A DNA stretch of 64,000 nucleotides from a virus (Duplodnaviria > Caudoviricetes): positions 128,001-192,000 of the IMG/VR virus record IMGVR_UViG_3300035208_002098, one strand, 5' to 3'. Made by a program: the position numbers and the translations under genes. Of this stretch, positions 20,265 through 42,639 are shown one piece after another. Within the stretch, counting starts at the first letter, position 1. Each line of letters opens with the position of its first letter. The notes below the pieces were generated by a model. It had not been told where the DNA came from and ran no database searches. It saw only the letters and a list, made by a program, of their open reading frames with translations.

Positions 20265-20351
20265 ATGGCGTGATTATTTGAACTAGCGTTCTGGAACTAC
20301 TAAACCTCGTCATACTCTAATCACAATAACCAATAAGTATGCAGAACCTCG

Positions 20352-20432: not shown

Positions 20433-20442
20433 ATATTTAAAG

Positions 20443-20515
20443 TGGGCCTACACAGACTTGAACTGTGAATCTTCTCCTTATGAGGGAGGTGCCTTCACCA
20501 TTTGGCTATAGGCCC
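20443..20515 (-). tRNA. tRNA(CAT), probably Ile2 (lysidine)
   Basis: GGGCCTA acceptor, A73, CTCATAA loop. Confidence 0.75.
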
Positions 20516-20521
20516 AAACTT

Positions 20522-20818: not shown

Positions 20819-20844
20819 TTTAATAATTGTTTTTAATTTATTTG

Positions 20845-20918
20845 TCCGCTTGATAGGACTTGAACCTATAACCTCTTCCGTATCAGGGAAGTAATCTAAC
20901 CAATTGATATACAAGCGG
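20845..20918 (-). tRNA. tRNA-Ile(GAT)
   Basis: Canonical cloverleaf. Confidence 0.85.
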
Positions 20919-20933
20919 ATTTATTATTTCTTA

Positions 20934-21010
20934 GGTACCTAAATTGGACTCGAACCAAAAACTAACTAGTATAAGGCTCCACAAGCCTCAGTGCCATCCC
21001 GGCTAGGTAC
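20934..21010 (-). tRNA. Atypical tRNA-His(GTG), reduced D arm, extended V region
   Basis: GAGGC-TTGTGGA-GCCTT, TTCGAGT T-loop, G-1:C73 possible. Confidence 0.6.
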
Positions 21011-21015
21011 ATTTG

Positions 21016-21100
21016 TCGTCTGGGTGAGATTTGAACTCACGTTGAGAATTAATCTCACAGCTTATCAGGCTGTTTTCTGCCACCACTCGAATACCAGACA
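21016..21100 (-). tRNA. tRNA-Ile(GAT) with long variable arm
   Basis: ACAGC-CTGATAA-GCTGT, V-arm GAGA-TTAAT-TCTC. Confidence 0.75.
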
Positions 21101-21146
21101 ATGTTAGACTCCGATTTTTTTCTAGGCAGAACGTTGTCTAAGTAAA

Positions 21147-21803
21147 CTACACAAGATATCGACCTTTTATCCAACCTTCATTTTCCCAGTTAGATAAGTC
21201 TTCGTTTTTAATCTTCTTATTAATATTATCTTTAGTAATCCAACAGGTACCATATTGTGAATTAGTTTCACCAACACCAGTACCACTTTTAATTTCAGAC
21301 ATTTTTAGTTTAGTTTCATTTGAATGGTTTTTATCTGTCCAATTATAAAAATATTTTCGTTCTAAAACTTCATCATCATATAATTTCTTAATAGTCTTAA
21401 CAAATTTTCCACTTCTTTTTTTAACCCAATCTGGGTTTGTTTCTCTAAGTTCTTTTTGTCTCTCATTAGATTTAAACGCATTTAATCTTTGTTCTTCTGA
21501 AGTAAAACCTCTTCCACCTTCACCACCAATCATTAGATTCATACATAAATCTTCCTTTAATAATTGTTTATTTACAAGCTCTTTTTCACGCTCTTTTAAT
21601 GATTCTCTATCTGGTAAAAATTCTAATATCTCTTTAATGAAATTTTCTTTACCATAATAATTAATTGAAAACCATAATCGTTTACCTGAACCTAGATAAC
21701 CATCTTCTAGGTTATTAGTACTATGCATTCCTATATAGTACTTATTGTTTATTACATTTGTTGTTTTATAAATGTAATGATATTGTTTTTGTCTTCTACC
21801 CAT
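21147..21803 (-). mobile_element. GIY-YIG (Seg-like) homing endonuclease
   Basis: YIYKTTNVINNKYYIGMH...YLGSG; NUMOD3-like HSNETKLKMS. Confidence 0.9.
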
Positions 21804-21855
21804 ATTTATATCGTTTATTATATAAATATAAGGTAAAGTACAAAAATGTCAAGTG

Positions 21856-21927
21856 GGTGTAAGCACGGTATCGAACCGAGTTCTCGTGATTCACAGTCAC
21901 GCACATCACCTTAATGCTTCAAACACC
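21856..21927 (-). tRNA. tRNA-His(GTG)
   Basis: G-1/C73, CTGTGAA loop. Confidence 0.85.
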
Positions 21928-21936
21928 ATATATTTG

Positions 21937-22018
21937 AGGAAGATAGAAGAATCGAACTCCATACCTACAGGTATCCCTAGGGTTCAAGCCTAGTTTGCCA
22001 CCGATGGCGGTACCTTCC
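21937..22018 (-). tRNA. tRNA-Ser(TGA), 8/4 allo-tRNA-like fold
   Basis: GGAAGGTA/TATCTTCC 8 bp, GGAG/CTTC 4 bp, D arm GCCA-TCGG-TGGC. Confidence 0.7.
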
Positions 22019-22027
22019 ATAAATTTG

Positions 22028-22112
22028 CGGAGGTAGTAGGGCTCGAACCCACACGGGTGTTACCCCGACCACGGTTTTCAAGACCGGTACAATACCATTC
22101 TGTCACACCTCC
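22028..22112 (-). tRNA. tRNA-Ser(TGA)
   Basis: Canonical type II, G73. Confidence 0.9.
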
Positions 22113-22116
22113 ATTG

Positions 22117-22187
22117 CACAGGTAGAAAGGGTCGAACTCTCACGGAAGGTTTTGGAGACCTTAATGCTACCATTACATTATACCTGT
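22117..22187 (-). tRNA. tRNA-Trp(CCA)
   Basis: Canonical, CTCCAAA loop. Confidence 0.85.
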
Positions 22188-22195
22188 ATATTTTG

Positions 22196-22284
22196 CACAT
22201 CGGTAGGGATTCGAACCCTCATCTAATCTTACGACCCTTAAGGACTGGGTTGGAGCCAGCTAGTCACGCCTAATGAGCCGATGT
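22196..22284 (-). tRNA. Atypical tRNA-Trp(CCA) with enlarged variable region
   Basis: ACATCGG/CCGATGT-G, CTGG-CTCCAAC-CCAG. Confidence 0.65.
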
Positions 22285-22292
22285 GTATTTAC

Positions 22293-22310
22293 CAATATGT
22301 CAAAGAACTT
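22293..22310 (-). promoter_or_regulatory. boxA-like antitermination element
   Basis: AAGTTCTTTGACATATTG; variants at about 33120-33130 and 34878-34886 before the other RNA operons. Confidence 0.55.
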
Positions 22311-22315
22311 TGTTG

Positions 22316-22387
22316 CGGACAAGGAGAATTTCGAAATCCCGACCCTCTGGTTAACGGCCAGACGCTCTGCCTCTGAGCTACGTGTCC
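22316..22387 (-). tRNA. tRNA-Asn(GTT)
   Basis: Canonical, TCTGG-CCGTTAA-CCAGA, G73. Confidence 0.85.
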
Positions 22388-30642: not shown

Positions 30643-31329
30643 ATGAAACCATTATATACTGAAGAAGAATTTAATAATAGTAAATCTATGGATTTATTAC
30701 CATTAGAGTGTTATACTTGCGGTAATACTTTTTATAAATATAAAAAGAAAATAACTTTTGTATATAAACATAATATTGGTGAAAATAGATTTTGTTCACA
30801 TAAATGTCATAATGATTTTAGAGTTAAAACTAATAATATTATATTAAACTGTACTAATTGTAATAAAGAATTTAGTAAAATAATTTCCGTAGTTAATAAA
30901 TCTAATACAGGTAATCATTTCTATTCTAAATCTTGTTCAGCTTCTTATAATAATAAACATAAAACTACTGGTAATAGACGCTCTAAACTTGAAATATACT
31001 TAGAGCAACAACTTGCTTTATTATACCCTAATTTAACTATTATTTATAATGATAAATTTATAATAGGTTCTGAATTAGATATCTATATACCATCCTTAAA
31101 CCTAGCATTTGAACTTAATGGTATCTTTCATTATGAACCAATATTTGGTATTGATAAGTTAGGGCAGATACAAAACAATGATATAAGTAAATCAAAAGCT
31201 TGTATAGATAATAAGATTGATTTATGTATAATAGATACATCTAATCAAACTTATGTAAAGGAAAGTACATCTAAGAAGTATCTTGATATAATAATCAAGA
31301 TACTAGATGGGCGTTTGTTAATTTCTTAG
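30643..31329 (+). mobile_element. Zinc-ribbon plus PD-(D/E)xK/Vsr-like homing endonuclease
   Basis: CYTC, FCSHKC, ELDIYIPSLNLAFELNGIFHY. Confidence 0.8.
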
Positions 31330-31387
31330 TCACCAATAAATTTGTGTGCAGTAACCACTACGTGCAAGTGAATTAACTTTGGTTACC

Positions 31388-31470
31388 TCCGGCTAGTAGG
31401 ATTCGAACCTACGGGTTCCTAAGAACGTGGGATATGAGCCCAGTGCGATTGTCCACTCTGCCATAGCCGG
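31388..31470 (-). tRNA. tRNA(CAT) with long variable arm
   Basis: TGGG-CTCATAT-CCCA, V-arm GTTC-TTAG-GAAC. Confidence 0.75.
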
Positions 31471-31477
31471 TGATATT

Positions 31478-32156
31478 TTAGTGTAATAATTGAATATTAC
31501 CTCTTAGTATATCTTTTAATTTAGCTCTTTTATTAGTAATATGGTCGATAACTAAATCATCTTTAACTCTATATGTTCTTCTTTTGTCAGAACGAGCACC
31601 ATTACCAATTTGTTGTTTTCTAAATTCTATTTCTTCGTCATTTATCTTATTAAAATAAATATCTCTAATTCTTTTTTCTATTTCTTCCCAAGCTAATTCT
31701 TCATTTCTATGTCTTTCTCGATTATTACCAATTCTAACCATGATACCTGTAGGTATATGAGTTAATACAACACAAGTTTCAACCTTATTTCTATGTTGAC
31801 CACCTTTACCACTACTACGAGTGTATTTGCGATTAACCTCATCACGGTTTAATTTAAAATTATATTCTTCTTCTGGAATTAAAGCAACGGTTATACAACT
31901 AGTTTGAATCCTACCCCTCTTTTCAGTTGGTGGTATTCTTTGCCATCTATGTGACCCGATTTCTTCTTGGAAATACTTTTCTACATCTTTACCGCTAAAG
32001 GCAAAGCATGACAAATCCACTTCTTTCTTCAACTGTTGAACAATCAAAGTTATTAATACTGGCTGCTTTTGTGTAGATATTTTTCATTTCACCTACAAGC
32101 AGTTTTGCATCGGCACCGCCTTCAGCATCTCTAAGTTCTAAAAATAGTTTTTTCAT
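31478..32156 (-). CDS. Class I peptide-chain release factor (RF1-type, lacking domain 1), 225 aa via +1 frameshift
   Basis: ELRDAEGG in frame 0; CTT TAG C at 32000-31994; HRWQRIPPTE and SSGKGGQH in the +1 frame. Confidence 0.85.
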
Positions 32157-32190
32157 TTGGTGAAATTTTAATTAATTATTAATACAGTTA

Positions 32191-32277
32191 TTATTGTCTA
32201 GAATTTATTATCAATATTGTAAATGCAATAACATATGGTGCTGCAATACATATTCCCGTTATAATAGCTGGTGTCAT
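32191..32277 (-). CDS. Small hydrophobic peptide (28 aa)
   Basis: MTPAIITGICIAAPYVIAFTILIINSRQ. Confidence 0.35.
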   Translation of the reverse strand: MTPAIITGICIAAPYVIAFTILIINSRQ

Positions 32278-32294
32278 ATTTTTATTTTAAAAAA

Positions 32295-32347
32295 CAGGAA
32301 GAACTTTTTTTTCTTAACCATAGAATTTAATTGCTGAACTCTTCCTT
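32295..32347 (-). ncRNA. Y-RNA-like motif RNA, copy 1
   Basis: GGAAGAG-TTCAGCAA...TTCTTCC-TG. Confidence 0.5.
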
Positions 32348-32354
32348 TATTTTG

Positions 32355-32405
32355 TGGAAGTGATTGGTATTGCTCCAATATTACGTACTCTCTACGTACA
32401 CTTCC
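32355..32405 (-). ncRNA. Mini tRNA-like RNA (acceptor, single hairpin, T-like arm)
   Basis: GGAAGTG/CACTTCC-A; TACGTA-GAGAG-TACGTA; ATTGG-AGCAATA-CCAAT. Confidence 0.55.
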
Positions 32406-32410
32406 ATTTG

Positions 32411-32494
32411 TTGCGGAGACAGGATTCGAACCTATACTAGCATTAACTGTCTCTTGGTTATGAGCCAAGAATGTTACCCTTACACCACCCCACG
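32411..32494 (-). tRNA. Initiator-like tRNA-Met(CAT) with long variable region
   Basis: C1.A72 mismatch, CTTGG-CTCATAA-CCAAG. Confidence 0.75.
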
Positions 32495-32554
32495 ATATAT
32501 TTTATAAGCTCCCCAAAGTGTGCTTCCAAAGGATAGGCATGGGGAGGATTGTTG

Positions 32555-32628
32555 TAGCGAAGAGTGGACTCGAACCACTGACCTTTAGGTTATGAGCCTA
32601 ACGAGCTACCAACTGCTACCACCTCGCA
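32555..32628 (-). tRNA. tRNA-fMet(CAT)
   Basis: 1:72 mismatch, fMet-like D arm GTAGCAGTTGGTAGCTCG. Confidence 0.85.
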
Positions 32629-32695
32629 AATTTTTACCTACTGTGTGAACATAAGTTAATAACTTATATCCAGTGAACCAGTTAGGATTTATATG

Positions 32696-32760
32696 TGCCC
32701 TTGGGTGATAATGAATCACCAATATTATCTCGTATTGTTACATACAAATAATACAAGGGC
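32696..32760 (-). ncRNA. Mini tRNA-like RNA
   Basis: GCCCTTG/CAAGGGC-A; GGTGA-TTCATTA-TCACC; one long central hairpin. Confidence 0.55.
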
Positions 32761-32766
32761 AAAAAA

Positions 32767-32828
32767 CAGGAAGAACTTTTAAGTTAAATTTTCAATTTTA
32801 ATTTTTTTTAATTGCTGAACTCTTCCTT
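32767..32828 (-). ncRNA. Y-RNA-like motif RNA, copy 2
   Basis: Ends identical to copy 1, different interior. Confidence 0.5.
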
Positions 32829-32939
32829 TATTTATATTTTGTGACGGAATGACGGTAAACGTTACGATTTAAGTTCTCATATACCTAGTACTGGGATTAA
32901 CTCTATCTGAATACCAAACTATTTAACCAATGTTTTAAA

Positions 32940-33103
32940 CTGGGAATATTTAGCCACTTTCATAGTGAGATTACCTTTTTTTTTCTTCATATTAAGGAGA
33001 AGTTTTTAACCTTCTTGTTTCTTAATAGTTAAGAGGACTATAATCAAACCTCTCATTTGCTTTTCATATTTGTGTAATTTTTAATTTGCGGTAATCATTC
33101 CTT
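32940..33103 (-). ncRNA. Y-RNA-like motif RNA, copy 3 (long)
   Basis: GGAATG-ATTACCGCAA...TATTCC-CAG. Confidence 0.4.
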
Positions 33104-33227
33104 ACACCTTTTTTATTAATCAATGAACTTTTTGTACTTTATAAATATAACATTAATCGTTAAAATCTAAGTACACTGCAAAATTACTAAAAATTTTTTA
33201 ACTTGTCAAGGTTTTTAGTAATTATTT

Positions 33228-33473
33228 TTAAATTATTTTTTCAACTGAAACCCAAATAACATGAAATGTATTGATATTATGTGTAATACCAGTGACTTTA
33301 TAAAAAGGACCATTAACATCAAAGTATATTTTATCATCTATTACCGGTGATACTTTAAATTTAACATATTCTTTTACAATGATAGGTTTACTATCTTCAT
33401 TTGGTATTATAAGATGAAATATTGGTTTATTACCAGTTAATAATTTATATATTTTATATAAAAATAGTTTCAT
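33228..33473 (-). CDS. Hypothetical protein
   Basis: Likely start MKLFLY directly after the peptidase stop. Confidence 0.55.
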   Translation of the reverse strand: MKLFLYKIYKLLTGNKPIFHLIIPNEDSKPIIVKEYVKFKVSPVIDDKIYFDVNGPFYKVTGITHNINTFHVIWVSVEKII

Positions 33474-33474
33474 A

Positions 33475-34278
33475 TTATCTTTTAGCTCTTTCAAAGAACA
33501 TTTTATTATTTCCAACGGTTGTTAATAATTCATAACCCATATCAATTGATTTTTCAACATCTTCAATGAAAATAAATTCACGTTTATTAGAGTGTTGGTT
33601 ATAATAACCAGCAAATACGTTTAAACAACATACATCAAAATTACATCTTAATATTGCAACATCTGTATAAGGGTCGTTACTAAAATTATCTACATTATAT
33701 TTTTGAAACACCGGTTTAACTAAATCAAACATTTCATCATTATATAGTTTAATACCGGAACAAAATTCACTACACCAATTATCTGTTGGTGCATCAAATT
33801 CTATGAAATACCCTACCTTATCTAATATAGTTTTATCAGCATTTTTAGAACCTTTACAACCAAACTCTTCTTCAACGAAAAATGCGGCAATTAATTTATC
33901 ACATTTTAATATTAATTCTAAACATATAGCAATACCACATTTATCATCACCACCAATACCATTATTTTCTGCATATAATATAGTTTTAATAGTGTTATCA
34001 AATGTATTTGGTATTTGCGATTCCATAATAACCAATCTATTATTAGTTTCAATCAATGGAAGATGATGTTGGTACACAGTGTCCATATGTGCTGCAATAC
34101 ATGGATAATATTCACCCTCATCTAATGTTCCTTTTATTAGATATACATTACCTATATCATCAACATGGACCACAATGTTATTATCGAATCCAAAGTTTAC
34201 TATAAACTCTCTTATTAATTGTTCACTACCAGTATAAGACGGTAATGACAATAATTCTTTAAATCTATCTTTATTCAT
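33475..34278 (-). CDS. M20/M28-family metallopeptidase
   Basis: AHMDTV, GGDDKCG, EEEFGCKGS, YYNQH. Confidence 0.85.
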   Translation of the reverse strand: MNKDRFKELLSLPSYTGSEQLIREFIVNFGFDNNIVVHVDDIGNVYLIKGTLDEGEYYPCIAAHMDTVYQHHLPLIETNNRLVIMESQIPNTFDNTIKTILYAENNGIGGDDKCGIAICLELILKCDKLIAAFFVEEEFGCKGSKNADKTILDKVGYFIEFDAPTDNWCSEFCSGIKLYNDEMFDLVKPVFQKYNVDNFSNDPYTDVAILRCNFDVCCLNVFAGYYNQHSNKREFIFIEDVEKSIDMGYELLTTVGNNKMFFERAKR

Positions 34279-34384
34279 TTGACAAAGATATAACAAAAAA
34301 ATAAGAAATGCAAATTTACTTTAAATTAATTTGTGATATATTTATATATAACAGATAATAACAATCATTTAAAAATATAAAACT

Positions 34385-34441
34385 ATGTGTGGATGTAAAG
34401 GTGGTAATGGTAAACCAAATGTAAAAGTGGTTAAAAAATAA
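34385..34441 (+). CDS. Tiny late peptide MCGCKGGNGKPNVKVVKK (18 aa)
   Basis: Own TATTTATA motif (34339) and downstream hairpin terminator. Confidence 0.45.
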   Translation: MCGCKGGNGKPNVKVVKK

Positions 34442-34466
34442 TTAAATTATTTATCATTAAAAACTA

Positions 34467-34492
34467 AAAAGGGGTCATAAAACCCCTTTTTT
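34467..34492. terminator. Bidirectional terminator
   Basis: AAAAGGGGT...ACCCCTTTTTT between the tmRNA 3' end and the small peptide. Confidence 0.7.
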
Positions 34493-34504
34493 CGTTTATT
34501 CTAG

Positions 34505-34870
34505 TGGAGCATCGGGAATTCGAACCCCGGTCTTTCATATTCTTCAATACCTTTCTACATGTTTAGGATAAAGATTTCTATCTTTCCAATATATTCAGTT
34601 TAATATAGCTTCAACTGATACCTACGCTATTGACCCTAGATTAACCACTTGGAACAATTTTAAAGTGGGTTCTTGGTTGTATGCTTCGTATACTTAGGCA
34701 GCTACAGCCTCTCCAGCAAGCACTTCAAAAGAAGCCTCAGCAAGGAAGTTTTCGGAAATATTTAACATATTGCCATTTGAACTTTTAACTACTCGTTTAA
34801 AGTGAATTTAGTTATTTCACTACATGCTTACCACTTACGATTATACAAAATCTAAAGCCAGTTATGCCCC
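34505..34870 (-). ncRNA. ssrA: tmRNA; tag (A)GNMLNISENFLAEASFEVLAGEAVAA
   Basis: GGGGCAT/ATGCTCC-A with G3.U70, T arm, tag ORF 34774-34694 ending AA-stop, smpB nearby. Confidence 0.92.
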
Positions 34871-34933
34871 ATAAATTAATGAACTCTTTTATAAATACAA
34901 AGATACTATTAAAAAATTAAAAAATCAAGTATT

Positions 34934-35146
34934 TTAATCAATTTTATATACGTAAACTGAATCAATTTTATTATTTTTTTCAATAACTAATTCAACTCGA
35001 ATTGGTTTAAGTGGTTCTTTTACTTTTATTTCGTCTGATGAAAATAACCATATACCTAACCAGATAAAACCACATATAATTATTGTTATAACAACACCAA
35101 TACCAATCAAACCTTCAACTAATCCATTCATATTATAATCACTCAT
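34934..35146 (-). CDS. Small membrane protein
   Basis: Single TM. Confidence 0.6.
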   Translation of the reverse strand: MSDYNMNGLVEGLIGIGVVITIIICGFIWLGIWLFSSDEIKVKEPLKPIRVELVIEKNNKIDSVYVYKID

Positions 35147-35583
35147 TATAATACCCTCTCCATTTCTCGTTTAGCATCTTTAAGTTTCAAATCTTCACGT
35201 TTATCGTAACTTTTTTTACCTTTAGCTAAAGCAATTTCTAATTTTAATAAACCCTTATCCGTTGTGAATAAACGTACAGGTACTATTGTTAACCCAGATT
35301 GTTTTACATTATATGAAAGTTTAGATAATTCTTTCTTTGTTAATAATAGTTTCCTATGACGTTTTTCTTCGTGTGCATCACCAAATTTATATTGTGAAAT
35401 ATGTAGTCCGGTGAGCCATAATTCATTATCAATGAATACACAGTAACTATCAACAAAACTAACATTACCATCCCTAATAGCTTTAACTTCGGTACCTATT
35501 AACATTATACCAGCAACATATTTATCTAAGAATTGATAATTAAAAGAACCTTTTTTATTTTGAAGATTTACTGTCGTTTTCAT
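35146..35583 (-). CDS. smpB: SsrA-binding protein
   Basis: AGIMLIGTEVKAIR, RKLLL, GKKSYDKRE. Confidence 0.95.
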   Translation of the reverse strand: MKTTVNLQNKKGSFNYQFLDKYVAGIMLIGTEVKAIRDGNVSFVDSYCVFIDNELWLTGLHISQYKFGDAHEEKRHRKLLLTKKELSKLSYNVKQSGLTIVPVRLFTTDKGLLKLEIALAKGKKSYDKREDLKLKDAKREMERVL

Positions 35584-35584
35584 A

Positions 35585-36289
35585 TTATTTACGTTTTGTA
35601 ATAACCGAATCAATTATACCATAAGTAACTGCTTCTTGACTGGTTAACCATTTATCTCTTTCTGTATCTAACATAACTTCTTCAACTGATTTACCACAAT
35701 ACGATGCAAGTTTTGAAAAAAGTTCTAAGTTAATTTTTTCAGTTTCAATCATAGATATTCTCATATCTTGTATATTTCCTTCACTACCAGAAGACACTTG
35801 ATGTAACATAACTCTACTTGATGGTAAACTAGAACGTTTACCTTTAGTTCCAGCACCTAATAATACAGACCCCATTGATGCTGCCATACCAGTATTAATG
35901 GTTGCAATATCTGATTTAATATAATCCATAACATCAACCATTGATAATCCAGATTTAACACTTCCTCCGGGTGTATCTATATGCATTGTAATATCTTCAT
36001 TATTTACGTTGTCTAGAAACATTAATTGTGCTTGTACAACAGTACTCATAGCGTCATTAACAACACCAGCAATCCATAAAATTCTATCCATCATTAAACG
36101 TGAAAAGATATCCATTTGAGTTACACGCATTTCTCTTTCTTCAAGAATATATGGTGTCATTGATGCTTGTGTATACAATCTTGTTTGAAGTTGTTCCCAA
36201 GCTCTAAATTGCATTTGAGAAACACCTAGATGTCTACAAGCGTAGTTTTTAAATTCTCCGTAATAATCTACATTACTATAATTGTCCAT
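35585..36289 (-). CDS. clpP: Clp protease proteolytic subunit
   Basis: DIFSRL, TPGGSV, GMAASMG, MLHQ. Confidence 0.95.
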   Translation of the reverse strand: MDNYSNVDYYGEFKNYACRHLGVSQMQFRAWEQLQTRLYTQASMTPYILEEREMRVTQMDIFSRLMMDRILWIAGVVNDAMSTVVQAQLMFLDNVNNEDITMHIDTPGGSVKSGLSMVDVMDYIKSDIATINTGMAASMGSVLLGAGTKGKRSSLPSSRVMLHQVSSGSEGNIQDMRISMIETEKINLELFSKLASYCGKSVEEVMLDTERDKWLTSQEAVTYGIIDSVITKRK

Positions 36290-36312
36290 TTAATTTTTAT
36301 TTAAAGTTAATA

Positions 36313-36567
36313 CTATTCTTCATCGTCCATTAAAAACATTGGGGTGTTTTCACCCATATAAGCACCTAATACGTTAAAATCGAAGTATTCCATAGCTTCT
36401 TCAAAACTCATACCGTCTCTTTCAACTAAAATAGAAAGACATTTAGCTTGACTGTATAAAGCTATTGGTCCTAAACCACATCTTTGCACTGCACCTATAA
36501 GTGCATCTTCAAACCCATCAGCCGTTAAGGCATCTGGGTTTAATTCTGCTAATGTTTCGACATCCAT
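36313..36567 (-). CDS. Conserved small phage protein
   Basis: DGFEDALIG...EAMEYFDFNVLGAYMGENTP. Confidence 0.7.
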   Translation of the reverse strand: MDVETLAELNPDALTADGFEDALIGAVQRCGLGPIALYSQAKCLSILVERDGMSFEEAMEYFDFNVLGAYMGENTPMFLMDDEE

Positions 36568-36788
36568 TATTGTTGTTGTTGTGGTTTACCATCAGGACCT
36601 AAACCTTGTGAAGCATAATATTCGTCTCTAGCTTTCAATTGTGCTAGCGTTTTTTCTTTAGCTTCAACAGCTTTAGCATACATATAATCTCTATCAGTAA
36701 TAGTTAGTGATTTAATTTCGTGCCAAGGCATACCTGTTAATACAAATATATCCCAATTTTTCTCAAAGATTGCTTTTTCGTCTTCCAT
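36567..36788 (-). CDS. Hypothetical protein
   Basis: TAATG-coupled ORF. Confidence 0.6.
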   Translation of the reverse strand: MEDEKAIFEKNWDIFVLTGMPWHEIKSLTITDRDYMYAKAVEAKEKTLAQLKARDEYYASQGLGPDGKPQQQQ

Positions 36789-36809
36789 TTTAATTTTTTT
36801 ACGGATACG

Positions 36810-37253
36810 TTATTGTTCTGCTGGTGCTTCACCAGCATTTTCTTCATTTTGTTTTTTATCGTATAGTGATTTAATTGATTCAACCGTTCTTTCATACGCC
36901 TCATAACCATATTTTTTCAATATAGTGCTAAATGTATTTACGTCAGGTTTAGCAATAACTACTCTTTCTTTATCACTATCATAACCAATATAAGTTATTA
37001 ATTCGATTGCAACCATTTCTTGCATATCTTCTGGTAATTGTTCGAATATAAGTTGATTTAATATTACAACCACATCAACATCATCACTTAAGTATTTAGT
37101 CAAATCATTTGTTTTAACTACTTTACCTATTTCTTTTTGTCTGTCGTTACCAACAATTTTAATGTTAACTTTTTGTTCTAAATCAGTACAGTTAATTACC
37201 AAATCAAAGATTTTTTCAACATCCTTTTCTAATTCATCAAATTTTTGTCCCAT
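36810..37253 (-). CDS. Putative phage metallopeptidase-like protein
   Basis: KPDVNTF..ILKKYG motif; HExxH degenerate. Confidence 0.45.
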   Translation of the reverse strand: MGQKFDELEKDVEKIFDLVINCTDLEQKVNIKIVGNDRQKEIGKVVKTNDLTKYLSDDVDVVVILNQLIFEQLPEDMQEMVAIELITYIGYDSDKERVVIAKPDVNTFSTILKKYGYEAYERTVESIKSLYDKKQNEENAGEAPAEQ

Positions 37254-37310
37254 TTTTTTCTATTTTAATTATTATTATTTACTTAGATTGCAAAAATATA
37301 TATAATATCT

Positions 37311-38324
37311 TTAATTTTCAAGTTTTTCTTGTATTTCTTTTATTTTTTCTAATAATTGACGTTCTTCTGGTGATATTTCCTTTGGCATTAATATATTAAT
37401 TTGGATTAAATAATCCCCACGTTCTGTATTATTAACTATAGTCATACCTTTACCTTTTAAACGCAATATACTTTCATTATCACTATAAGGTGGTACATCT
37501 AATTTAATTGTGGTACCTTCAATTGTTGGAATCTCAATTTTAACACCTAAAATAGCATCAGGATAACTTATTTCTTTAATATATTTTAAATCCGATAACA
37601 CCCTTAAAAACTTTTCATGTTTGAATACATTAATAACAATTATTAAATTACCGCTATCACCATTTTTACATGCATTACCTTTACTATATTTTATCATACT
37701 ATCACCATCACTAATACCAGCTGGTATATTAATAGTTACTTCATCATTGATTGGTACAACACCATTACCGTTACAGGTTTTACATTGTGTTTTATACGTT
37801 TTACCATTACCACCACAATGATTACAAGGATATACATTTTGAACAACACCAACTTGTGTATTATAAACTTCTCTAATGATACCACTACCATGACATACAT
37901 TACAAGTTACTTCATCTTCACCACCAACACCTTTACAATCATTACAACTATCATATCTATTATATTTAAAAGTTTTATTAACACCATTAAATGCTTCTTC
38001 TAAACTTAATTTAATATTTAATCTAATATTTTGGCCGACTGGTCTAGTTTGTTGATTAAATTGTTGACGGAATCGTTCACCCCATTTAACAAAATCATCA
38101 TTATAGCCACCACGATTTGTCTGATGTCCATACTTATCGTAATTAGCTTTTTTATCAGGGTCTTTTAAAACTTCGTAAGCTTCATTAATTTCTTTGAAGG
38201 CATTAGCATCACCACCTTTATCCGGGTGGTGTTCTTTAGCTAAATTACGGTATGATTTTTTAATTTCTTTATCTGAAGCACCATTTTTAAGTCCAAGCAC
38301 TTCATAATAATCTCGTTTAGACAT
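37311..38324 (-). CDS. dnaJ: Chaperone DnaJ
   Basis: HPD J-domain, four CxxCxGxG repeats. Confidence 0.95.
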   Translation of the reverse strand: MSKRDYYEVLGLKNGASDKEIKKSYRNLAKEHHPDKGGDANAFKEINEAYEVLKDPDKKANYDKYGHQTNRGGYNDDFVKWGERFRQQFNQQTRPVGQNIRLNIKLSLEEAFNGVNKTFKYNRYDSCNDCKGVGGEDEVTCNVCHGSGIIREVYNTQVGVVQNVYPCNHCGGNGKTYKTQCKTCNGNGVVPINDEVTINIPAGISDGDSMIKYSKGNACKNGDSGNLIIVINVFKHEKFLRVLSDLKYIKEISYPDAILGVKIEIPTIEGTTIKLDVPPYSDNESILRLKGKGMTIVNNTERGDYLIQINILMPKEISPEERQLLEKIKEIQEKLEN

Positions 38325-38538
38325 TATTAGTATCTTTTTTTAATAAAACACAATTAATTTTTGTATTACCAAAAAATCTATTATTTAATACACCAATAAA
38401 TTGATTATTTGGATTACTATTCTCATCGAATGGCTTTGATGGTATAGTTGGTAACCCATTACTATCATCTTCGTTTCTAGTGGTGAAATATTCTAACATT
38501 GAATAAAATTCAACACTCTCTTGCAATAATTTTTTCAT
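38317..38538 (-). CDS. Hypothetical protein
   Basis: ORF behind promoter at 38568. Confidence 0.5.
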   Translation of the reverse strand: MKKLLQESVEFYSMLEYFTTRNEDDSNGLPTIPSKPFDENSNPNNQFIGVLNNRFFGNTKINCVLLKKDTNNV

Positions 38539-38602
38539 ATTTATTTATGTTTCTATTTATTATTTTACAAAAATACATAAATTAAATGAAACTTTCAAGT
38601 TT

Positions 38603-39262
38603 ATGAGGTATAGAATTGTATTAGTTAAAAATAAAATTAAAAAGAAGGTTCTTTTAAAATCAAGTTCATTCGAATTCATTAACAATATGTTTAGAGAATT
38701 ACGAAAGGATAATAAAATTGACATGCCCCAAAAACATATTAACTATAAAGATATAATACCAGTTGAATACGAAATATTATTAATTAAAGAACGTGGTGAA
38801 ACTGATGAAAATAGAATTGTTCGTGATAAATTAGGTAAGTTAGTAGAAGAAAAAAATGATTCACCTAAATGGGTTATAATTGATTCGGCACCGTATCAAC
38901 TAGAAGAAACATTTTGGGTATATGGTTACGATAATAGATTTGAACGATTCACCGTAAGAGATATTATTAAAAAAATATTAATGAAGGGTATTAGGACCAA
39001 GAATGGTACTAAAGAAATTATTGTAGTTAAAAATAAATTAATTATTCGTGGTGATGAATTAGATTTCATTATTTGTAAATGTCCTGATGACTGTCTTAGA
39101 TTACATAATAAACTAAAAGAAATAGCAAAAGATAGTAAAACTAATAAATTACTATTTTTAGGTATAGCATCAGAAAAAACAGCCGGTGATATCTATGACT
39201 TAATCAAAGAGAAAACCGGCTGGAATATGACAAAAATATGGAGAACTACTACTCGTCCTTAA
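38603..39262 (+). CDS. Hypothetical basic protein
   Basis: 219-aa ORF. Confidence 0.65.
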   Translation: MRYRIVLVKNKIKKKVLLKSSSFEFINNMFRELRKDNKIDMPQKHINYKDIIPVEYEILLIKERGETDENRIVRDKLGKLVEEKNDSPKWVIIDSAPYQLEETFWVYGYDNRFERFTVRDIIKKILMKGIRTKNGTKEIIVVKNKLIIRGDELDFIICKCPDDCLRLHNKLKEIAKDSKTNKLLFLGIASEKTAGDIYDLIKEKTGWNMTKIWRTTTRP

Positions 39263-40187
39263 TATTACCGATATCAAATAATTTTTTAGATGTTTCTAGT
39301 ACTTCAATTACTTTTTGGTAATCTTCTTTACTGATTAATTGTGGATTAATACATTCAACATGTTCATCACCATCAGTTGGTAAGAAAAAAGCTAATGCAT
39401 TAAAATGTCTTTCATCAAATACTTTATCAACAGATTTAGCAAATTGATGTACAATTTCACGATTATTTAATATTTCTCTATCTAGATAAAATACTATCAC
39501 TTTTGGCTCGTTAATGTTTTTTACGTTATTACCTTCAATAGCAAATACTTCATTACGAATTTTATTTAATGTATCTAAATCAATTTCTTTGATTAATTCA
39601 TCTGTAGAGTCAATTAGAGCGATTCTAAGACGTTTTGACCACTCAAGGCGTGTTACGTTAACACCATGGATGAAATACTCTCTTAAATCACCTATTTCGA
39701 TTACTGGACCAGTTAAAGAATGGAATTCTAAATTATCATCGATGTCGTAAAATTTTTCAGGCTTTTCGATAAGTATTAATTCATCTTCTAATTCAATAAA
39801 CCCAAATATATTAAACATTACATCATAAAGTAAGTCAAATTGTTTATGTTTAGAATCATAAATTTCAAACATAGTTTTATTTACCTCGGTTACATCGTGA
39901 GCTAATAAATTAATGAATGTTGTGTAGAAATACACCCAATTTATGTTACCTATGGTTGTTATGATTTCAGTTTCCTCAAAAAATTCATTTTTAACATCGG
40001 TAAGTGTGTACCAAGTTATATGTGGTAATGGTTTATCCATAGCATTATATAATTCGGTAATCCGAGTAGTTATATCTGGTTTTGTAAGTATAACTGATTT
40101 ATTACTCAAATAAAGTTCCATTTCTTGTTTGTAATCACTTGAATACGTATTAAAGTAATTCCTAAAATGTTTGTCGTGTATTTTCAT
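39249..40187 (-). CDS. DUF6745-like domain fused to a conserved phage domain
   Basis: FHSLTGPVIE..YFIHGV; VECINP. Confidence 0.5.
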   Translation of the reverse strand: MKIHDKHFRNYFNTYSSDYKQEMELYLSNKSVILTKPDITTRITELYNAMDKPLPHITWYTLTDVKNEFFEETEIITTIGNINWVYFYTTFINLLAHDVTEVNKTMFEIYDSKHKQFDLLYDVMFNIFGFIELEDELILIEKPEKFYDIDDNLEFHSLTGPVIEIGDLREYFIHGVNVTRLEWSKRLRIALIDSTDELIKEIDLDTLNKIRNEVFAIEGNNVKNINEPKVIVFYLDREILNNREIVHQFAKSVDKVFDERHFNALAFFLPTDGDEHVECINPQLISKEDYQKVIEVLETSKKLFDIGNIKDE

Positions 40188-40245
40188 ATATTTTAAATTT
40201 ATTCAAAAATACTAAAAATTATTAACACTTTCAAGTTATTATAAC

Positions 40246-40270
40246 AAAAAAAGGACCGAAGTCCCTTTTT
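40246..40270 (-). terminator. Intrinsic terminator after DUF2828/ncRNA
   Basis: GGAC-TTCG-GTCC hairpin plus T-tract. Confidence 0.7.
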
Positions 40271-40284
40271 ATTTTTATTTGTAT

Positions 40285-40427
40285 CAGAATGCTGGGCCAT
40301 TTTTTGTCTTCTCTTACCATTAACGAGAGTTTTTGTTAGTTTTTTTTCAAAGGGTGTACACAATTTTTAAACCACCTGTTTCACTAATTTAATTTGCTTT
40401 TTTTTTAAGATTGCAGTATGCATCCTT
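40285..40427 (-). ncRNA. Y-RNA-like motif RNA, copy 4, directly downstream of DUF2828
   Basis: GGATGC-ATACTGCAA...GCATTC-TG. Confidence 0.5.
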
Positions 40428-40470
40428 TAGCTACAAATACGGGGGGTATCTTTCGATACCCACCTTAAAA

Positions 40471-41904
40471 TTATATCGTTACTTTTGAGTAACGTTCTGA
40501 GTTAACAACCTCTAACATCATTGATATTGGAGTAAGGTCTTTACCAGCCAATAACGATGTTAATAAACTTGGACTAAAACCAGATACTAACGCTGTATTT
40601 TGTTTATCAAATCTAACTGGTGAATCACTATTATGAGCGTTTAAATTCCAGAATACTACTTTTGGTATTTTATACCCAGCTTTAGTGTATTGAGCTTCAA
40701 TCATTTGTTGTGCAGTTGGATTCCATGAATCACTACCACATCTATCAAATTGCATATCCGAAAATATAACAATCATAGTTGGCATTTCAAGTTCTGGTAC
40801 ATTATATGTAACCGCTTTATTTAAAAGCATTTTAAATGCTGCTTCTAAGTTGGTATTCATATCCCATTGAGCTCTATGTAATTGTGCATATCTTTCAGAT
40901 AAAGTACCTTTAAGTACTTGTATCTCAGGACGAGCTGAAAATGTCATAAAAGCATCTTTAAAAGCACCTTCATTTCTTTCAGAAATATATAACCCTAAAG
41001 AAATACATACATCCAAACAACTTACATTAGGGTTTTGTCCAGCTGGACAATCCATTGACCCCGATACATCACACATAGGCATTAATCTTTCAGTATTACC
41101 AATCATATAGTTTGGTAATGCATTCCATTGTGCGTTTGCACCTTGAGCAACACCATTTTTCATTGATTTAACAACGTCATATGGGTATACAGCACCAGCA
41201 TTTATTTTAGTTTCACCTTTATCAAGTGCATCCATATATGCTTGGAATCTAATTGAGTCATTTTTACTAAATGCTTTCATATAATCTGCCATAGCTCTTG
41301 ATGGTAATTTACTATATTCAATAACTTCCCAGTTTTTAGCACACATAGCTTGTTCAACTGTGTTAGATAACTCAGATAACATTTTTCTATACTCTTTTGG
41401 AGTTAATTTTAAATGTTTTCTAACTAATTCAGCTTGAGCTTTTTTATCTCTACTGTTTACTGATGGTCTTGGCATCCATTTAGCACATAAACCATTTTTG
41501 TTAGCTAGACCAGTTGCTATTGTTTCCAACGCAGCACTTTCAAGTCCAGTACCAAGTAATGATAATACATCATCCCATCTACCAAATTCAGAAATTAATT
41601 GAATATTTTTAGCGATTGATGCTTTATGGTTTTTAGCCATATAAGATACGATATCTCTGAAAATTTGTCTTTCTCCAGCACCACCACGAATATCACGAGC
41701 CCAAAATAATAATTTCATAGCTACCAACGGATTTTCACCATATGCTTTAGTGAATGAATTAATAAGTCTAGTTTTATCTTGACCTCTCATTGCACCAATT
41801 TGGAAAAATAAATCAACACAATTATTCAACGATGTTGAGTTTGTTGTCATACCATTTTCTGTTAATACGTCTTCAGTACGTAAAGCATCTACTAATTTAG
41901 TCAT
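40471..41904 (-). CDS. DUF2828 / TROVE-VWA (Ro60-like) protein
   Basis: TENG, RDIRGGAGER, GRWDD, AKWMPR, DVSGSM, SDMQFD, VFWNL, VSGFSP. Confidence 0.85.
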   Translation of the reverse strand: MTKLVDALRTEDVLTENGMTTNSTSLNNCVDLFFQIGAMRGQDKTRLINSFTKAYGENPLVAMKLLFWARDIRGGAGERQIFRDIVSYMAKNHKASIAKNIQLISEFGRWDDVLSLLGTGLESAALETIATGLANKNGLCAKWMPRPSVNSRDKKAQAELVRKHLKLTPKEYRKMLSELSNTVEQAMCAKNWEVIEYSKLPSRAMADYMKAFSKNDSIRFQAYMDALDKGETKINAGAVYPYDVVKSMKNGVAQGANAQWNALPNYMIGNTERLMPMCDVSGSMDCPAGQNPNVSCLDVCISLGLYISERNEGAFKDAFMTFSARPEIQVLKGTLSERYAQLHRAQWDMNTNLEAAFKMLLNKAVTYNVPELEMPTMIVIFSDMQFDRCGSDSWNPTAQQMIEAQYTKAGYKIPKVVFWNLNAHNSDSPVRFDKQNTALVSGFSPSLLTSLLAGKDLTPISMMLEVVNSERYSKVTI

Positions 41905-42013
41905 AGTGTTAAATTTTAAAGTTAAATATTTTTTTTATTATTTTGACAATTTTATATCCGTTTTATCGGAAATGTTTTGCAAAGATATGAAATAATTTTT
42001 AATTTGTCAAGTA

Positions 42014-42550
42014 TTAAATGAAATTTCTTACAAATAATTTTCTATGTGCTTGTATTAAACCAACCTCTTTTATAGATTTAATATGGGCTGCGGTACCATA
42101 ACCCTTGTTTGAAAAAAAATCATATTGTGGGTGAATTTCATGTAATCGTTTCATATAATTATCTCTTTCTACCTTAGCAAGAATTGCTGCTGCTGCTATA
42201 CAAGTGTATGTATTATCACCTTTAGCTACACATGTGTGTTCAATTCCTTTGTAAGGAGAAAATACGATACCATCAACTAATATATGTTTAATATCTTGGT
42301 TTTTAGTGATTATTAGGTCATCCAGACATTTATGCATAGCTATAAATGTTGCTTCGTTTATATTATATTTATCAATTAATTTAACTGAGGATGCTTGAAC
42401 AGAATAAGCTATTGCGTTTTTTATTATGATTTCATACGCTTCATCACGTTGTTTTTCTGATAATGTTTTAGAATCTCTAATTAATTTATGATTAAAATCA
42501 TTAGGTAGGATAACAGCACCTGTAACAACAGGTCCGGCTAAACAACCTCT
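42014..42550 (-). CDS. rnhB: Ribonuclease HII, main body (separated from its DE motif)
   Basis: RGCLAGPVV, DSKTLS, LVDG, KGD, AAAILAKV, NKGYGT. Confidence 0.85.
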   Translation of the reverse strand, partial: RGCLAGPVVTGAVILPNDFNHKLIRDSKTLSEKQRDEAYEIIIKNAIAYSVQASSVKLIDKYNINEATFIAMHKCLDDLIITKNQDIKHILVDGIVFSPYKGIEHTCVAKGDNTYTCIAAAAILAKVERDNYMKRLHEIHPQYDFFSNKGYGTAAHIKSIKEVGLIQAHRKLFVRNFI

Positions 42551-42555
42551 ACTAA

Positions 42556-42639
42556 TTAGCCCACCTCGTCTATACCAACTATAAAATCTAGTTCGGATAG
42601 GCAAGGTGGACAATGTGTTAATAATTTATTATTCTTCAT
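42556..42639 (-). pseudogene. Second RNase HII N-terminus carried by the HEG cassette
   Basis: MKNNKLLTHCPPCLSELDFIVGIDEVG-stop; 8 nt TAATTAGT before AGA GGT TGT. Confidence 0.65.

What the first reader, a model, noticed from the sequence alone, without database searches (positions are those of the whole stretch)
32295..40427. Four copies of a Y-RNA-like motif, one directly downstream of a Ro60-like DUF2828 gene
Seen (minus strand): AAGG-initiated closing stems followed by an unpaired T(T/A)CNGCAA at 32347-32295, 32828-32767, 33103-32940 and 40427-40285. The stems co-vary (GGAAGAG/TTCTTCC, GGAATG/TATTCC, GGATGC/GCATTC) and the interiors are A-rich and variable; copies 3 and 4 share AAAAGCAAAT. 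Copy 4 sits between the DUF2828 stop and its terminator; the others are interleaved with tRNAs. Established: Ro60/TROVE proteins bind Y RNAs at a terminal stem and occur near RNA-repair genes. Inference: these are the cognate ncRNAs of DUF2828, forming an uncharacterised phage RNP.
Basis: partly seen in the sequence, partly recalled or inferred. Interest (0 to 1): 0.72.

Follow-up and report, generated by a model that had tools for sequence, protein, structure and literature searches.

The report
Ro60-like phage protein with handle RNAs
This large phage encodes a ring-shaped protein predicted to fold like the RNA-surveillance protein Ro60. It also carries a family of small RNAs that share one conserved "handle" and sit beside this gene in many phages and bacteria, so this is probably an undescribed Ro60/Y-RNA-type particle.

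Summary
The four copies are real. They belong to a nine-member RNA family in this 248-kb phage, all on the minus strand. Each has a 7-8 bp terminal stem, an unpaired T(T/A)CNGCAA beside its 5' strand, a variable interior ("cargo") and an invariant G after the 3' strand. Copy 3 more likely ends at 32846 than at 32940.

The 477-aa DUF2828/DUF7788 protein is predicted with high confidence to have the full Ro60 fold (Z 23.9 to Xenopus Ro60).

In 56 viral loci holding its homologues, strict handles lie 87:1 on the gene's strand, and more than half are within 600 nt of the gene. The same holds in 72 of 80 prokaryotic-assembly loci. In the reverse test, 22 of 40 mostly fragmentary viral contigs with a full handle encode the protein.

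Two family members outside the window carry circularly permuted tRNA bodies, as bacterial YrlA Y RNAs do. The family still fails YrlA's defining tests. Rfam has no family for it, and I found no paper.

The handle closely matches the published pattern of Dictyostelium Class I RNAs. Binding and expression are untested. This scan has reported the same pairing before on other DNA.

The parts
41980..42010 (-). Promoter-like site (TTG-N21-TAnnTTTG) upstream of the DUF2828 gene
   Evidence: The motif has 22 sites on the minus strand of the window, 7 on the plus strand and a mean of 3.8 in shuffles. Reading it as a Bacteroidota-type -7 box is from my own knowledge.
40471..41904 (-). Gene for a 477-aa DUF2828 + DUF7788 protein with a predicted Ro60 fold (helical-repeat ring plus vWA domain with a DxSxS MIDAS motif)
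   Evidence: Pfam E 1e-37 and 9e-51. PHROG phrog_850 'RNA-binding protein', E 5e-156. Model pLDDT 92. Ro60 matches. D279, S281 and S283 are invariant in 61 homologues.
40441..40464 (-). GC-rich hairpin with a GAAA loop just after the stop codon, with no U-run. Its role is unknown and it is not conserved in relatives.
40286..40426 (-). 5' stem 40426-40420, spacer A, motif TACTGCAA 40418-40411, 3' stem 40292-40286, G at 40285. The 3' module is a hairpin at 40329-40311 (CTCT/AGAG) whose loop GGU can pair with GCC at 40297-40295, a possible pseudoknot.
   Evidence: The orthologous RNA lies directly downstream of the gene in L003, L005, L007, L009, L010, L013, L024 and L025. Its hairpin co-varies (CTTC/GAAG, TTCC/GGAA, CTCT/AGAG), and so does its loop pairing (GGGT/RCCC, GAGT/RCTC).
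40246..40270 (-). Intrinsic terminator (AAAAAGGGAC-TTCG-GTCCTTTTTTT) that closes the unit promoter-gene-RNA
   Evidence: The next promoter-like site is at 40234-40204.
33179..33209 (-). Promoter-like site heading the unit copy 3, copy 2, tRNA, tRNA, copy 1
32846..33101 (-). Stem GGAATGAT / GTCATTCC, motif TACCGCAA, G at 32845.
   Evidence: It matches in position L003:16744-16940, L005:17946-18111, L011:18396-18553 and L023:16766-16937, and shares with them a 4-bp hairpin with a 7-nt loop that begins TRTG.
32768..32827 (-). Short handle RNA (copy 2), 60 nt, with an A-rich interior
   Evidence: Covariance model R1 gives 61.9 bits, but this copy is a training member.
32410..32628 (-). Two genes called tRNA-Met (CAT anticodon) at 32554-32628 and 32410-32494, interleaved with the handle RNAs
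32289..32346 (-). Short handle RNA (copy 1), 51 nt at 32346-32296, then G at 32295 and a U6 run at 32294-32289. It may also end the unit.

Best explanation
The four elements are genes for small non-coding RNAs of one family, here called 'handle RNAs'. The handle is a terminal stem that joins the 5' and 3' ends, a single-stranded U(U/A)CNGCAA on the inner side of the 5' strand, and a G after the 3' strand. I propose that this handle is the binding site for the DUF2828/DUF7788 protein, a distant structural relative of Ro60. The protein ring would hold the handle much as Ro60 holds the terminal stem and 5'-strand motif of Y RNAs. The variable interior would then be a cargo that is displayed or tethered. 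The cargos seen are A-rich loops, a pseudoknotted module, a T arm, or a whole tRNA body without an anticodon loop.

In this phage the protein and its type A RNA form one promoter-to-terminator unit. Three further RNAs are made with two tRNAs from a second promoter 7 kb downstream. The likely role is in handling tRNA or other structured RNA during infection, for example quality control, or recruiting or decoying tRNA-binding factors.

Shown here: the RNA family, its stem covariation, its strand bias, its linkage to the gene, and the predicted Ro60 fold. Inferred: direct binding, processing into discrete RNAs, and the biological role.
For: 1. The family is real. There are 9 members in the genome, all on the minus strand, with 8 different stem sequences.
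2. RNAalifold on 25 short members predicts only the terminal 7-bp stem. Six of its 7 pairs keep pairing through changes on both sides, and the motif stays unpaired. On my 8-pair structure, 94.5% of cells are paired against 67% in shuffles and about 44% in slid controls.
3. Covariance model R1 finds two members it was not trained on (E 9e-6 and 6e-5). All 40 hits at E <= 0.01 in 41 loci are on the gene's strand.
4. Linkage from the protein side. In 56 viral loci (37-68% identity) there are 87 strict handles on the gene's strand and 1 on the other. 47 of the 87 lie within 600 nt of the gene, and 31 loci have an adjacent one. Most of the apparently empty loci carry motif variants such as AACAGCAA, TTCAGCAC or TTCAGCAT next to the gene.
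5. In 80 prokaryotic-assembly loci, 218 relaxed hits lie on the gene's strand against 67, 42 and 47 in controls. Most are tandem arrays just upstream, and 72 of 80 loci have at least one.
6. Linkage from the RNA side. 22 of 40 viral contigs with a full handle encode the protein, against 1 of 10 contigs where the pattern matched without a stem. All four contigs that are at least 60% complete and carry a clear handle have the protein.
7. Ro60 fold. The best profile hits among PDB sequences are TROVE/Ro60 proteins, at the MIDAS site only (E 0.05-0.17).
8. Y-RNA-like architecture. Members at genome 100389-100258 and 110134-110014 carry T arm, acceptor stem and D arm in permuted order. They give the only weak Rfam YrlA matches (24.9 and 30.4 bits). 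This is the layout Chen et al. 2014 describe for YrlA (PMC4201824).
9. A canonical phage Ro60 binds Y-like RNAs encoded next to its gene (PMC12135203).
Against: No binding, expression or RNA-end data exist for this system. The single-strand motif (CNGCAA) differs from the Ro60-binding GNCGAA/GGUCCGA motif, so the binding mode cannot be carried over from Ro60.

Single-sequence folds are not more stable than shuffles.

Many handle RNAs lie in the 5' or 3' UTR of the gene, which also fits a cis-regulatory role. About half of the handle-bearing contigs show no DUF2828, although most of them are fragments under 30% complete. Gene-RNA linkage within related phages partly reflects shared ancestry.

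In Dictyostelium, the look-alike Class I RNA DdR-21 is reported to bind the RRM protein Rnp1A directly (PMC7919456). A different reader of the handle is therefore possible.
Confidence: 0.65

Rival explanations
1. The handle acts in cis as a regulatory or processing signal and is not the core of a stable particle. For example, the protein or a nuclease could recognise it in the gene's own UTR for feedback control, or it could mark cleavage sites that release tRNAs and neighbouring RNAs from long transcripts.
For: Many copies lie in the 5' UTR just before the ribosome-binding site (L027, L028) or in the 3' UTR (copy 4). Others sit between tRNAs in one transcription unit.
Against: Tandem arrays of up to 6 copies with different cargos occur. 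Some copies lie 5-9 kb from the gene, and five lie 55-68 kb from it in this genome. Cargos include complete tRNA-like bodies and a conserved pseudoknot module. These features point to RNAs with functions of their own. The handle also encloses its cargo rather than flanking the tRNAs.
Confidence: 0.15
2. The RNAs are real trans-acting RNAs, but another factor reads the handle, such as a host protein or an RRM-type protein as reported for Dictyostelium Class I RNA. DUF2828 would then act in the same pathway without binding the handle itself.
For: [quoted passage not shown] The handle motif is unlike known Ro60 sites.
Against: Tight, strand-specific adjacency to this one gene persists down to 35-40% protein identity and across viral and cellular assemblies. 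The protein has the fold of a protein whose known job is to bind the terminal stem of small RNAs. No other gene was seen to travel with the pair, although I did not tabulate neighbours systematically.
Confidence: 0.15
3. The elements are transcription terminators, or chance inverted repeats in AT-rich DNA.
For: Copies 1 and 2 are followed by GUUUUUU. Random 6-7 bp stems are common in this 28% GC genome: without the extra criteria, 22 of 35 motif sites in reversed sequence also found a stem.
Against: The loops are 35-240 nt and the stems are AT-rich, unlike intrinsic terminators. The U-run is absent from copies 3 and 4 and from most relatives. Copy 4 is followed by a separate canonical terminator. 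With the strict signature the strand ratio is 87:1, and reversed controls give 0-5.
Confidence: 0.03

Closest known systems
Ro60 (Rsr, TROVE + vWA) with Y RNAs: bacterial and phage YrlA/YrlB (Rfam RF02553; Chen et al. 2014, PMC4201824) and Thermus phage phiLo Ro60 with Yrl1/Yrl2 (PMC12135203; PDB 9KOP, 9L5Y)
   Same: The protein is a ring of helical repeats plus a vWA domain with a MIDAS motif. The small RNAs are encoded next to its gene, often in several copies. [quoted passage not shown] Some cargos are permuted tRNA bodies (T arm, acceptor stem, D arm) or a lone T arm. The RNAs sit near tRNA genes.
   Different: The protein belongs to other Pfam families (DUF2828/DUF7788). It has no TROVE match and only 10-18% identity to solved Ro60 structures. 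The RNA motif is U(U/A)CNGCAA, not GNCGAA or CGAA. The Rfam YrlA scores are far below threshold. The four window copies have no tRNA-like domain. No binding data exist.
Class I RNAs of dictyostelid social amoebae (Aspegren 2004; search pattern in Mosig et al. 2006, PMC5054030; Kjellin et al. 2021, PMC7919456)
   Same: The published pattern is GTTGRCCTTACAGCAA ... GTCAACTG. That is a 6-bp terminal stem, then the motif, a variable interior, the 3' strand, and then TG. The phage form is AGRATNN(N)-T(T/A)CNGCAA ... (N)NNATYCT-G. Lengths of 42-65 nt match copies 1 and 2 (51 and 60 nt). The positions reported as near-invariant in Class I RNAs (C6, C9, A10, A11) are invariant here too.
   Different: Class I RNAs are eukaryotic, have their own DUSE promoter, and are described as unique to Dictyostelia. 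Their only named direct binder is the RRM protein Rnp1A. No long or tRNA-like cargos are reported for them. Homology as opposed to convergence was not tested here, because no amoeba genome is available in these tools.
Circularly permuted or tRNA-mimicking RNAs in phage tRNA clusters (tmRNA, YrlA)
   Same: These are tRNA parts re-used inside another RNA scaffold and encoded in tRNA arrays.
   Different: Here the anticodon loop is replaced by the handle. The same handle also carries cargos that have nothing to do with tRNA.

Membership tests
YrlA Y RNA (Rfam RF02553) | Score at or above the curated Rfam threshold (69 bits) | tested here: not met
   No match in window 31300-41000 even at E <= 10. 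Two family members outside the window reach 30.4 and 24.9 bits, mostly through their T and D arms.
YrlA Y RNA (Rfam RF02553) | GNCGAAN0-1G motif near the 5' end (the proposed Rsr-binding site; Chen 2014) | tested here: not met
   The conserved motif is T(T/A)CNGCAA. C, G, C, A, A are invariant in 25 aligned members, and T, C, G, C, A, A in the 33-member alignment.
YrlA Y RNA (Rfam RF02553) | tRNA-like domain in the order T arm, acceptor-like stem, D arm | tested here: not met
   Absent from the four window copies. Present in two members at genome 100389-100258 and 110134-110014. A T arm alone is present at 113447-113358.
YrlA Y RNA (Rfam RF02553) | Encoded next to a TROVE-domain Ro60 gene | tested here: not met
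   There is no PF05731 match in the protein or anywhere in the 248-kb contig. The neighbour is a DUF2828 protein with a Ro60-like fold.
Ro60 / TROVE proteins | Sequence membership (Pfam TROVE PF05731) | tested here: not met
   The profile search against PDB sequences gives only E 0.05-0.17 to TROVE/Ro60, confined to the MIDAS region.
Ro60 / TROVE proteins | Fold: helical-repeat ring closed by a C-terminal vWA domain | tested here: met
   Predicted model pLDDT 92, pTM 0.91. Foldseek E 7.6e-10 to 6e-6 to 12 Ro60/TROVE chains, TM 0.5-0.64. VIA-align Z 23.9, rmsd 3.8 A over 410 residues to 1yvr, against Z 11 or less for vWA-only hits. This compares a prediction with solved structures.
Ro60 / TROVE proteins | MIDAS motif (DxSxS) in the vWA domain | tested here: met
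   D279, S281 and S283 are invariant in 61 homologues (consensus DVSGSM).
Ro60 / TROVE proteins | Binds the terminal stem of small RNAs encoded nearby | not testable with these tools
   Only genomic linkage could be shown.
Dictyostelid Class I RNAs | Short stem joining the 5' and 3' ends, with its structure conserved but not its sequence | tested here: met
   Feature as described in PMC7919456.
Dictyostelid Class I RNAs | 11-nt motif CCTTACAGCAA next to the 5' strand of the stem | tested here: inconclusive
   The last 8 of the 11 positions match (T[TA]CNGCAA against TTACAGCAA in the pattern of PMC5054030). The first three positions fall in the variable stem or spacer here.
Dictyostelid Class I RNAs | Length 42-65 nt | tested here: inconclusive
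   Copies 1 and 2 are 51 and 60 nt. Copies 3 and 4 are 256 and 141 nt.
Dictyostelid Class I RNAs | DUSE promoter about 60 nt upstream; occurrence in Dictyostelia | not testable with these tools
   This is a eukaryotic promoter element and no amoeba genome is available here. The phage copies lie in multi-gene units behind bacterial-type promoter-like sites.
Intrinsic terminators | GC-rich stem, short loop, U-run | tested here: not met
   The terminator scan reported none of the four. Their loops are 35-240 nt. A U-run follows only copies 1 and 2.

The most novel reading that the evidence does not exclude
DUF2828/DUF7788 proteins and handle RNAs form a second, widespread branch of the Ro60/Y-RNA world. 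On this reading it runs from phages and prokaryotic assemblies (tested here) to giant viruses and eukaryotes (not tested here). The orphan Class I RNAs of Dictyostelium, thought unique to social amoebae since 2004, would be its eukaryotic members, with a DUF2828-type protein as their missing partner. In phages the interchangeable cargos would let one ring protein present tRNA look-alikes and other modules to host or phage RNA enzymes.
Probability: 0.3. Interest if true: 0.9.

Novelty: new variant of a known kind. Interest (0 to 1): 0.8.

Why it matters
DUF2828/DUF7788 is a very large family with no assigned function. It has 6,788 cluster representatives at E <= 0.001, and about 8,000 close relatives were scored in the word-based search. 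Pairing it with a defined RNA partner would give it a testable function. It would also extend the Ro60/Y-RNA principle to a second protein family and a second RNA handle.

The pairing would add a compact protein-plus-RNA module to the biology of tRNA-rich phages. The module could bear on tRNA quality control or on conflicts with host RNA-targeting defences.

If the resemblance to Dictyostelium Class I RNAs reflects common descent, a twenty-year-old orphan RNA class gains a candidate partner and relatives outside amoebae. The handle is also a simple, portable tag, which is useful for finding new structured RNAs by their flanks.

Tried and rejected
- Rfam: no Y RNA, YrlA or other family over the four copies, either at gathering thresholds or at E <= 10.
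- Single-sequence folding: z-scores are not significant.
- Tiny-ORF reading, in which AAGGA acts as a ribosome-binding site: the possible peptides differ in frame and length between copies and lack start codons in copies 1 and 2 (read). Rejected.
- Terminator reading: rejected.
- Loose stem search without the 3' G and GC criteria: uninformative in this AT-rich DNA, because 22 of 35 control sites also found stems.
- Relaxed motif NNCNGCAN in the phage's own genome: only noise beyond the 9 members.
- Covariance model R1 cannot span long cargos, so it does not recover copies 3 and 4. Only a partial hit at 33040-33099 appears, at E 2.7.
- R1 candidate at 54673-54758: it lies inside what reads as continuous coding sequence and is taken as chance.
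- Pfam TROVE and RtcB searches of the genome: no match.
- Single-protein search of PDB sequences: nothing relevant.
- Sequencing runs: no RNA holder was listed.
- Protein atlas: returned only the same family.
- Literature: no paper links DUF2828 or DUF7788 to Ro60 or to an RNA. The one paper holding Ro60, Dictyostelium and 'class I' together is unrelated.
- MAFFT registers for the type A 3' module were off by one in some rows, so I tabulated that pseudoknot by pattern and by eye rather than with the count of structure pairs.

Full report
CONTEXT. The window is bases 128001-192000 of a single 248,412-bp viral contig with 27.7% GC. It holds 16 tRNA calls and a tmRNA. It also encodes a release-factor-like protein, ClpP, DnaJ and RNase HII. 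Nothing close is in the deposited-phage collection.

THE OBSERVATION. All four sites are present on the minus strand. Each has a terminal stem, followed directly or after one base by T(T/A)CNGCAA, then a variable interior, then the complementary strand. A scan of the whole contig found five more members, also on the minus strand. They lie in the tRNA-rich region at genome coordinates 113447-113358, 110672-110395, 110134-110014, 100954-100900 and 100389-100258.

The nine members have eight different stem sequences: AGGATGC, GGAATGAT, AGGAAGAG (twice), AGGTTAGT, AGATTCAT, AATATTG, AGGATTGG and AGGTTTG. In every member a G follows the 3' strand.

The AAAAGCAAAT shared by copies 3 and 4 is not significant: 13% of shuffled pairs share a run of 10 or more. 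Folding energies of single copies are no better than shuffles, so all the support for structure is comparative.

THE PROTEIN. ORF 41904-40471 matches Pfam DUF2828 and DUF7788 and PHROG phrog_850, which is labelled 'RNA-binding protein'. The family is very large: 6,788 cluster representatives at E <= 0.001, and about 8,000 close relatives scored.

An AlphaFold2 model built on 61 homologues has pLDDT 92 and pTM 0.91. Its 12 best Foldseek matches are all Ro60/TROVE structures aligned over the full length (E 7.6e-10 to 6e-6). After them come vWA-only hits at E >= 2e-3.

VIA-align gives Z 23.9 (rmsd 3.8 A, 410 residues, model residues 8-456) to Xenopus Ro60. It gives Z 13.6-17.5 to the Deinococcus and Thermus-phage proteins and Z 11 or less to everything else. 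The vWA MIDAS residues are invariant.

By sequence the protein is not a TROVE member. A profile search of PDB sequences puts TROVE/Ro60 chains in four of the top five places, but only weakly and only at the MIDAS site. So the protein works-like and folds-like Ro60 (predicted), and membership of the TROVE family by sequence is not met.

LINKAGE, FROM THE PROTEIN SIDE. I fetched 56 viral loci encoding homologues at 37-68% identity, oriented with the gene on the plus strand. I used a strict signature: the motif, a stem of at least 7 bp with at most one G-U pair and at least two stem positions whose 5'-strand base is G or C, a spacer of 0-1 nt, and the 3' G. It gives 87 hits on the gene's strand and 1 on the other strand. 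Reversed sequence gives 0 and 5.

As a test that does not depend on how hits were selected, the motif has such a stem in 87 of 231 occurrences on the gene's strand. The figure is 1 of 189 on the opposite strand.

47 of the 87 lie within 600 nt of the gene, which is about 6% of the sequence searched. 31 loci have an adjacent copy. Reading the flanks of the 'empty' loci shows handles with variant motifs (AACAGCAA, TGCAGCAA, TTCAGCAC, TTCAGCAT) or imperfect stems next to the gene. Some sit just before the ribosome-binding site.

In 80 loci from prokaryotic assemblies (35-59% identity; several are cultured isolates, many may be prophage or phage DNA), a relaxed signature gives 218 hits on the gene's strand. 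Controls give 67, 42 and 47. Most hits are tandem arrays of 1-6 copies ending just before the start codon, and 72 of 80 loci have at least one.

LINKAGE, FROM THE RNA SIDE. I tested 50 of these contigs, most estimated under 30% complete, and 23 encode the protein.

I then split them by whether the three free stem bases actually pair. 22 of 40 contigs with a stem have the protein, against 1 of 10 without a stem. Among contigs at least 60% complete, the four with a clear handle all have the gene, and the six without the gene have only stemless or coding-like matches.

STRUCTURE OF THE HANDLE. An alignment of 25 short members gives 94.5% paired cells on my 8-pair structure. Shuffles give 67% and slid registers about 44%. 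Seven of the 8 pairs show changes on both sides. These sequences were picked by a pairing criterion, so that number is partly circular. RNAalifold independently returns only the 7-bp terminal stem and leaves the motif unpaired.

A covariance model built from that alignment finds two members of this genome that it was not trained on (E 9e-6 and 6e-5). It also gives 40 hits at E <= 0.01 in 41 loci, about half of them untrained, and all 40 are on the gene's strand. It cannot bridge long cargos, so copies 3 and 4 rest on the pattern-plus-stem evidence and on orthology.

CARGOS AND ORTHOLOGY. Copy 4 belongs to a conserved 'type A' RNA that follows the gene directly in L003, L005, L007, L009, L010, L013, L024 and L025. 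Its 3' module is a small hairpin whose loop can pair with the bases just before the closing strand. Both pairings co-vary: CTTC/GAAG, TTCC/GGAA and CTCT/AGAG for the hairpin, and GGGT/RCCC and GAGT/RCTC for the loop pairing. The sample is small and was tabulated by pattern and by eye, so I treat the pseudoknot as a lead.

Copy 3 is the counterpart in position of a 'type B' RNA lying 5-9 kb downstream of the gene in relatives. In each case a short member follows after 14-20 nt, and here copy 2 follows after 18 nt.

Elsewhere in the genome, the member at 100389-100258 encloses a complete tRNA body in permuted order: anticodon-stem 3' strand, T arm, acceptor 3' strand with discriminator A, a 14-nt linker, acceptor 5' strand, D arm, anticodon-stem 5' strand. 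The member at 110134-110014 has a T arm, a closed acceptor-like hairpin and a D arm. The member at 113447-113358 has a T arm only. That is the YrlA/YrlB layout of Chen et al. 2014. They also report that a YrlA with a 7-bp acceptor stem is cut by RNase P and receives CCA, which could apply to the first of these members.

TRANSCRIPTION UNITS. A site TTG-N18-21-TAnnTTTG occurs 22 times on the minus strand, 7 times on the plus strand, and 3.8 times on average in shuffles. Sites lie at 42010-41980 before the DUF2828 gene, at 40234-40204 just after the terminator that follows copy 4, and at 33209-33179 before copy 3.

From this I infer two units. One is promoter, DUF2828, type A RNA, terminator. The other is promoter, copy 3, copy 2, tRNA, tRNA, copy 1, U-run. 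Reading the site as a Bacteroidota-type promoter rests on my own knowledge of the -7 TAnnTTTG consensus.

COMPARISON WITH WHAT IS KNOWN. The closest system is Ro60 with Y RNAs, including a phage Ro60 that binds Y-like RNAs encoded next to its gene and can assemble with host PNPase (PMC12135203). This system has the same logic but a different protein family and a different handle. It fails all four YrlA membership features for the window copies.

The handle closely matches the published search pattern for Dictyostelium Class I RNAs, GTTGRCCTTACAGCAA ... GTCAACTG (PMC5054030). Kjellin et al. 2021 describe those RNAs as unique to dictyostelids and as having no known mechanism. I took that lead from earlier notes of this scan and checked only the published pattern and description. 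Homology is untested.

I found no paper linking DUF2828 or DUF7788 to Ro60 or to an RNA, and Rfam 15 has no such family. This scan has reported the same pairing many times on other DNA. One such report was later re-checked: what was seen held up, but its bold reading was given low odds. My figures rest on the tests above.

VERDICT. I rate it a new variant of a known kind (a Ro60/Y-RNA-type particle) and of high interest.

Noticed in passing
window 32352-32401 and 32695-32760 (minus strand): Two tRNA-sized spacers between the tRNAs and the handle RNAs each have a 7-bp acceptor-like closing stem (GGAAGTG/CACTTCC and GCCCTTG/CAAGGGC), an A after the stem, and two internal hairpins. They may be a second family of structured RNAs or reduced tRNA-like RNAs.
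   Followed up: no
genome 110672-110395 (L001:14395-14672, minus strand), outside the window: This handle RNA has a 278-nt, GC-richer, strongly structured cargo (MFE -62.8 kcal/mol). It contains CTAAGGTAGCGAAG, which resembles a conserved 23S rRNA segment as I recall it. There is no Rfam match at E <= 5.
   Followed up: partly
window 17192-22387 and L001 (genome 96001-116000): Many amino acids have paired tRNA genes, one of normal length (72-77 nt) and one 82-90 nt long (Arg, Asn, Ile, Ser, Trp, Thr, Lys, Glu, Gln). The nature of the extra 10-15 nt was not examined.
   Followed up: no
window, minus strand; 22 sites, e.g. 41980, 40204, 38568, 37291, 34898, 34283, 33179: The motif TTG-N18-21-TAnnTTTG is strongly enriched on the coding strand (22 sites, against 7 on the other strand and 3.8 in shuffles). 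It sits before most transcription units, including the tmRNA gene, and is probably the phage's promoter type.
   Followed up: partly
window 4080-4649 (minus strand): There is a match to the Rnl2-type RNA ligase family PF09414 (E 3e-11) with three TAA codons inside the matched stretch. It may be a broken, split or mis-framed RNA-repair gene. No RtcB was found in the contig.
   Followed up: no
window 42014-42613 (minus strand) and loci L012, L025: An RNase HII gene lies directly upstream of the DUF2828 gene here. Judging by the translated flanks, the same is true in at least two relatives. It may simply be conserved gene order.
   Followed up: no
window 32274-32190 (minus strand): A small ORF for a hydrophobic peptide of about 28 aa (MTPAIITGICIAAPYVIAFTILIINSRQ) starts right after the U-run of copy 1.
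   Followed up: no
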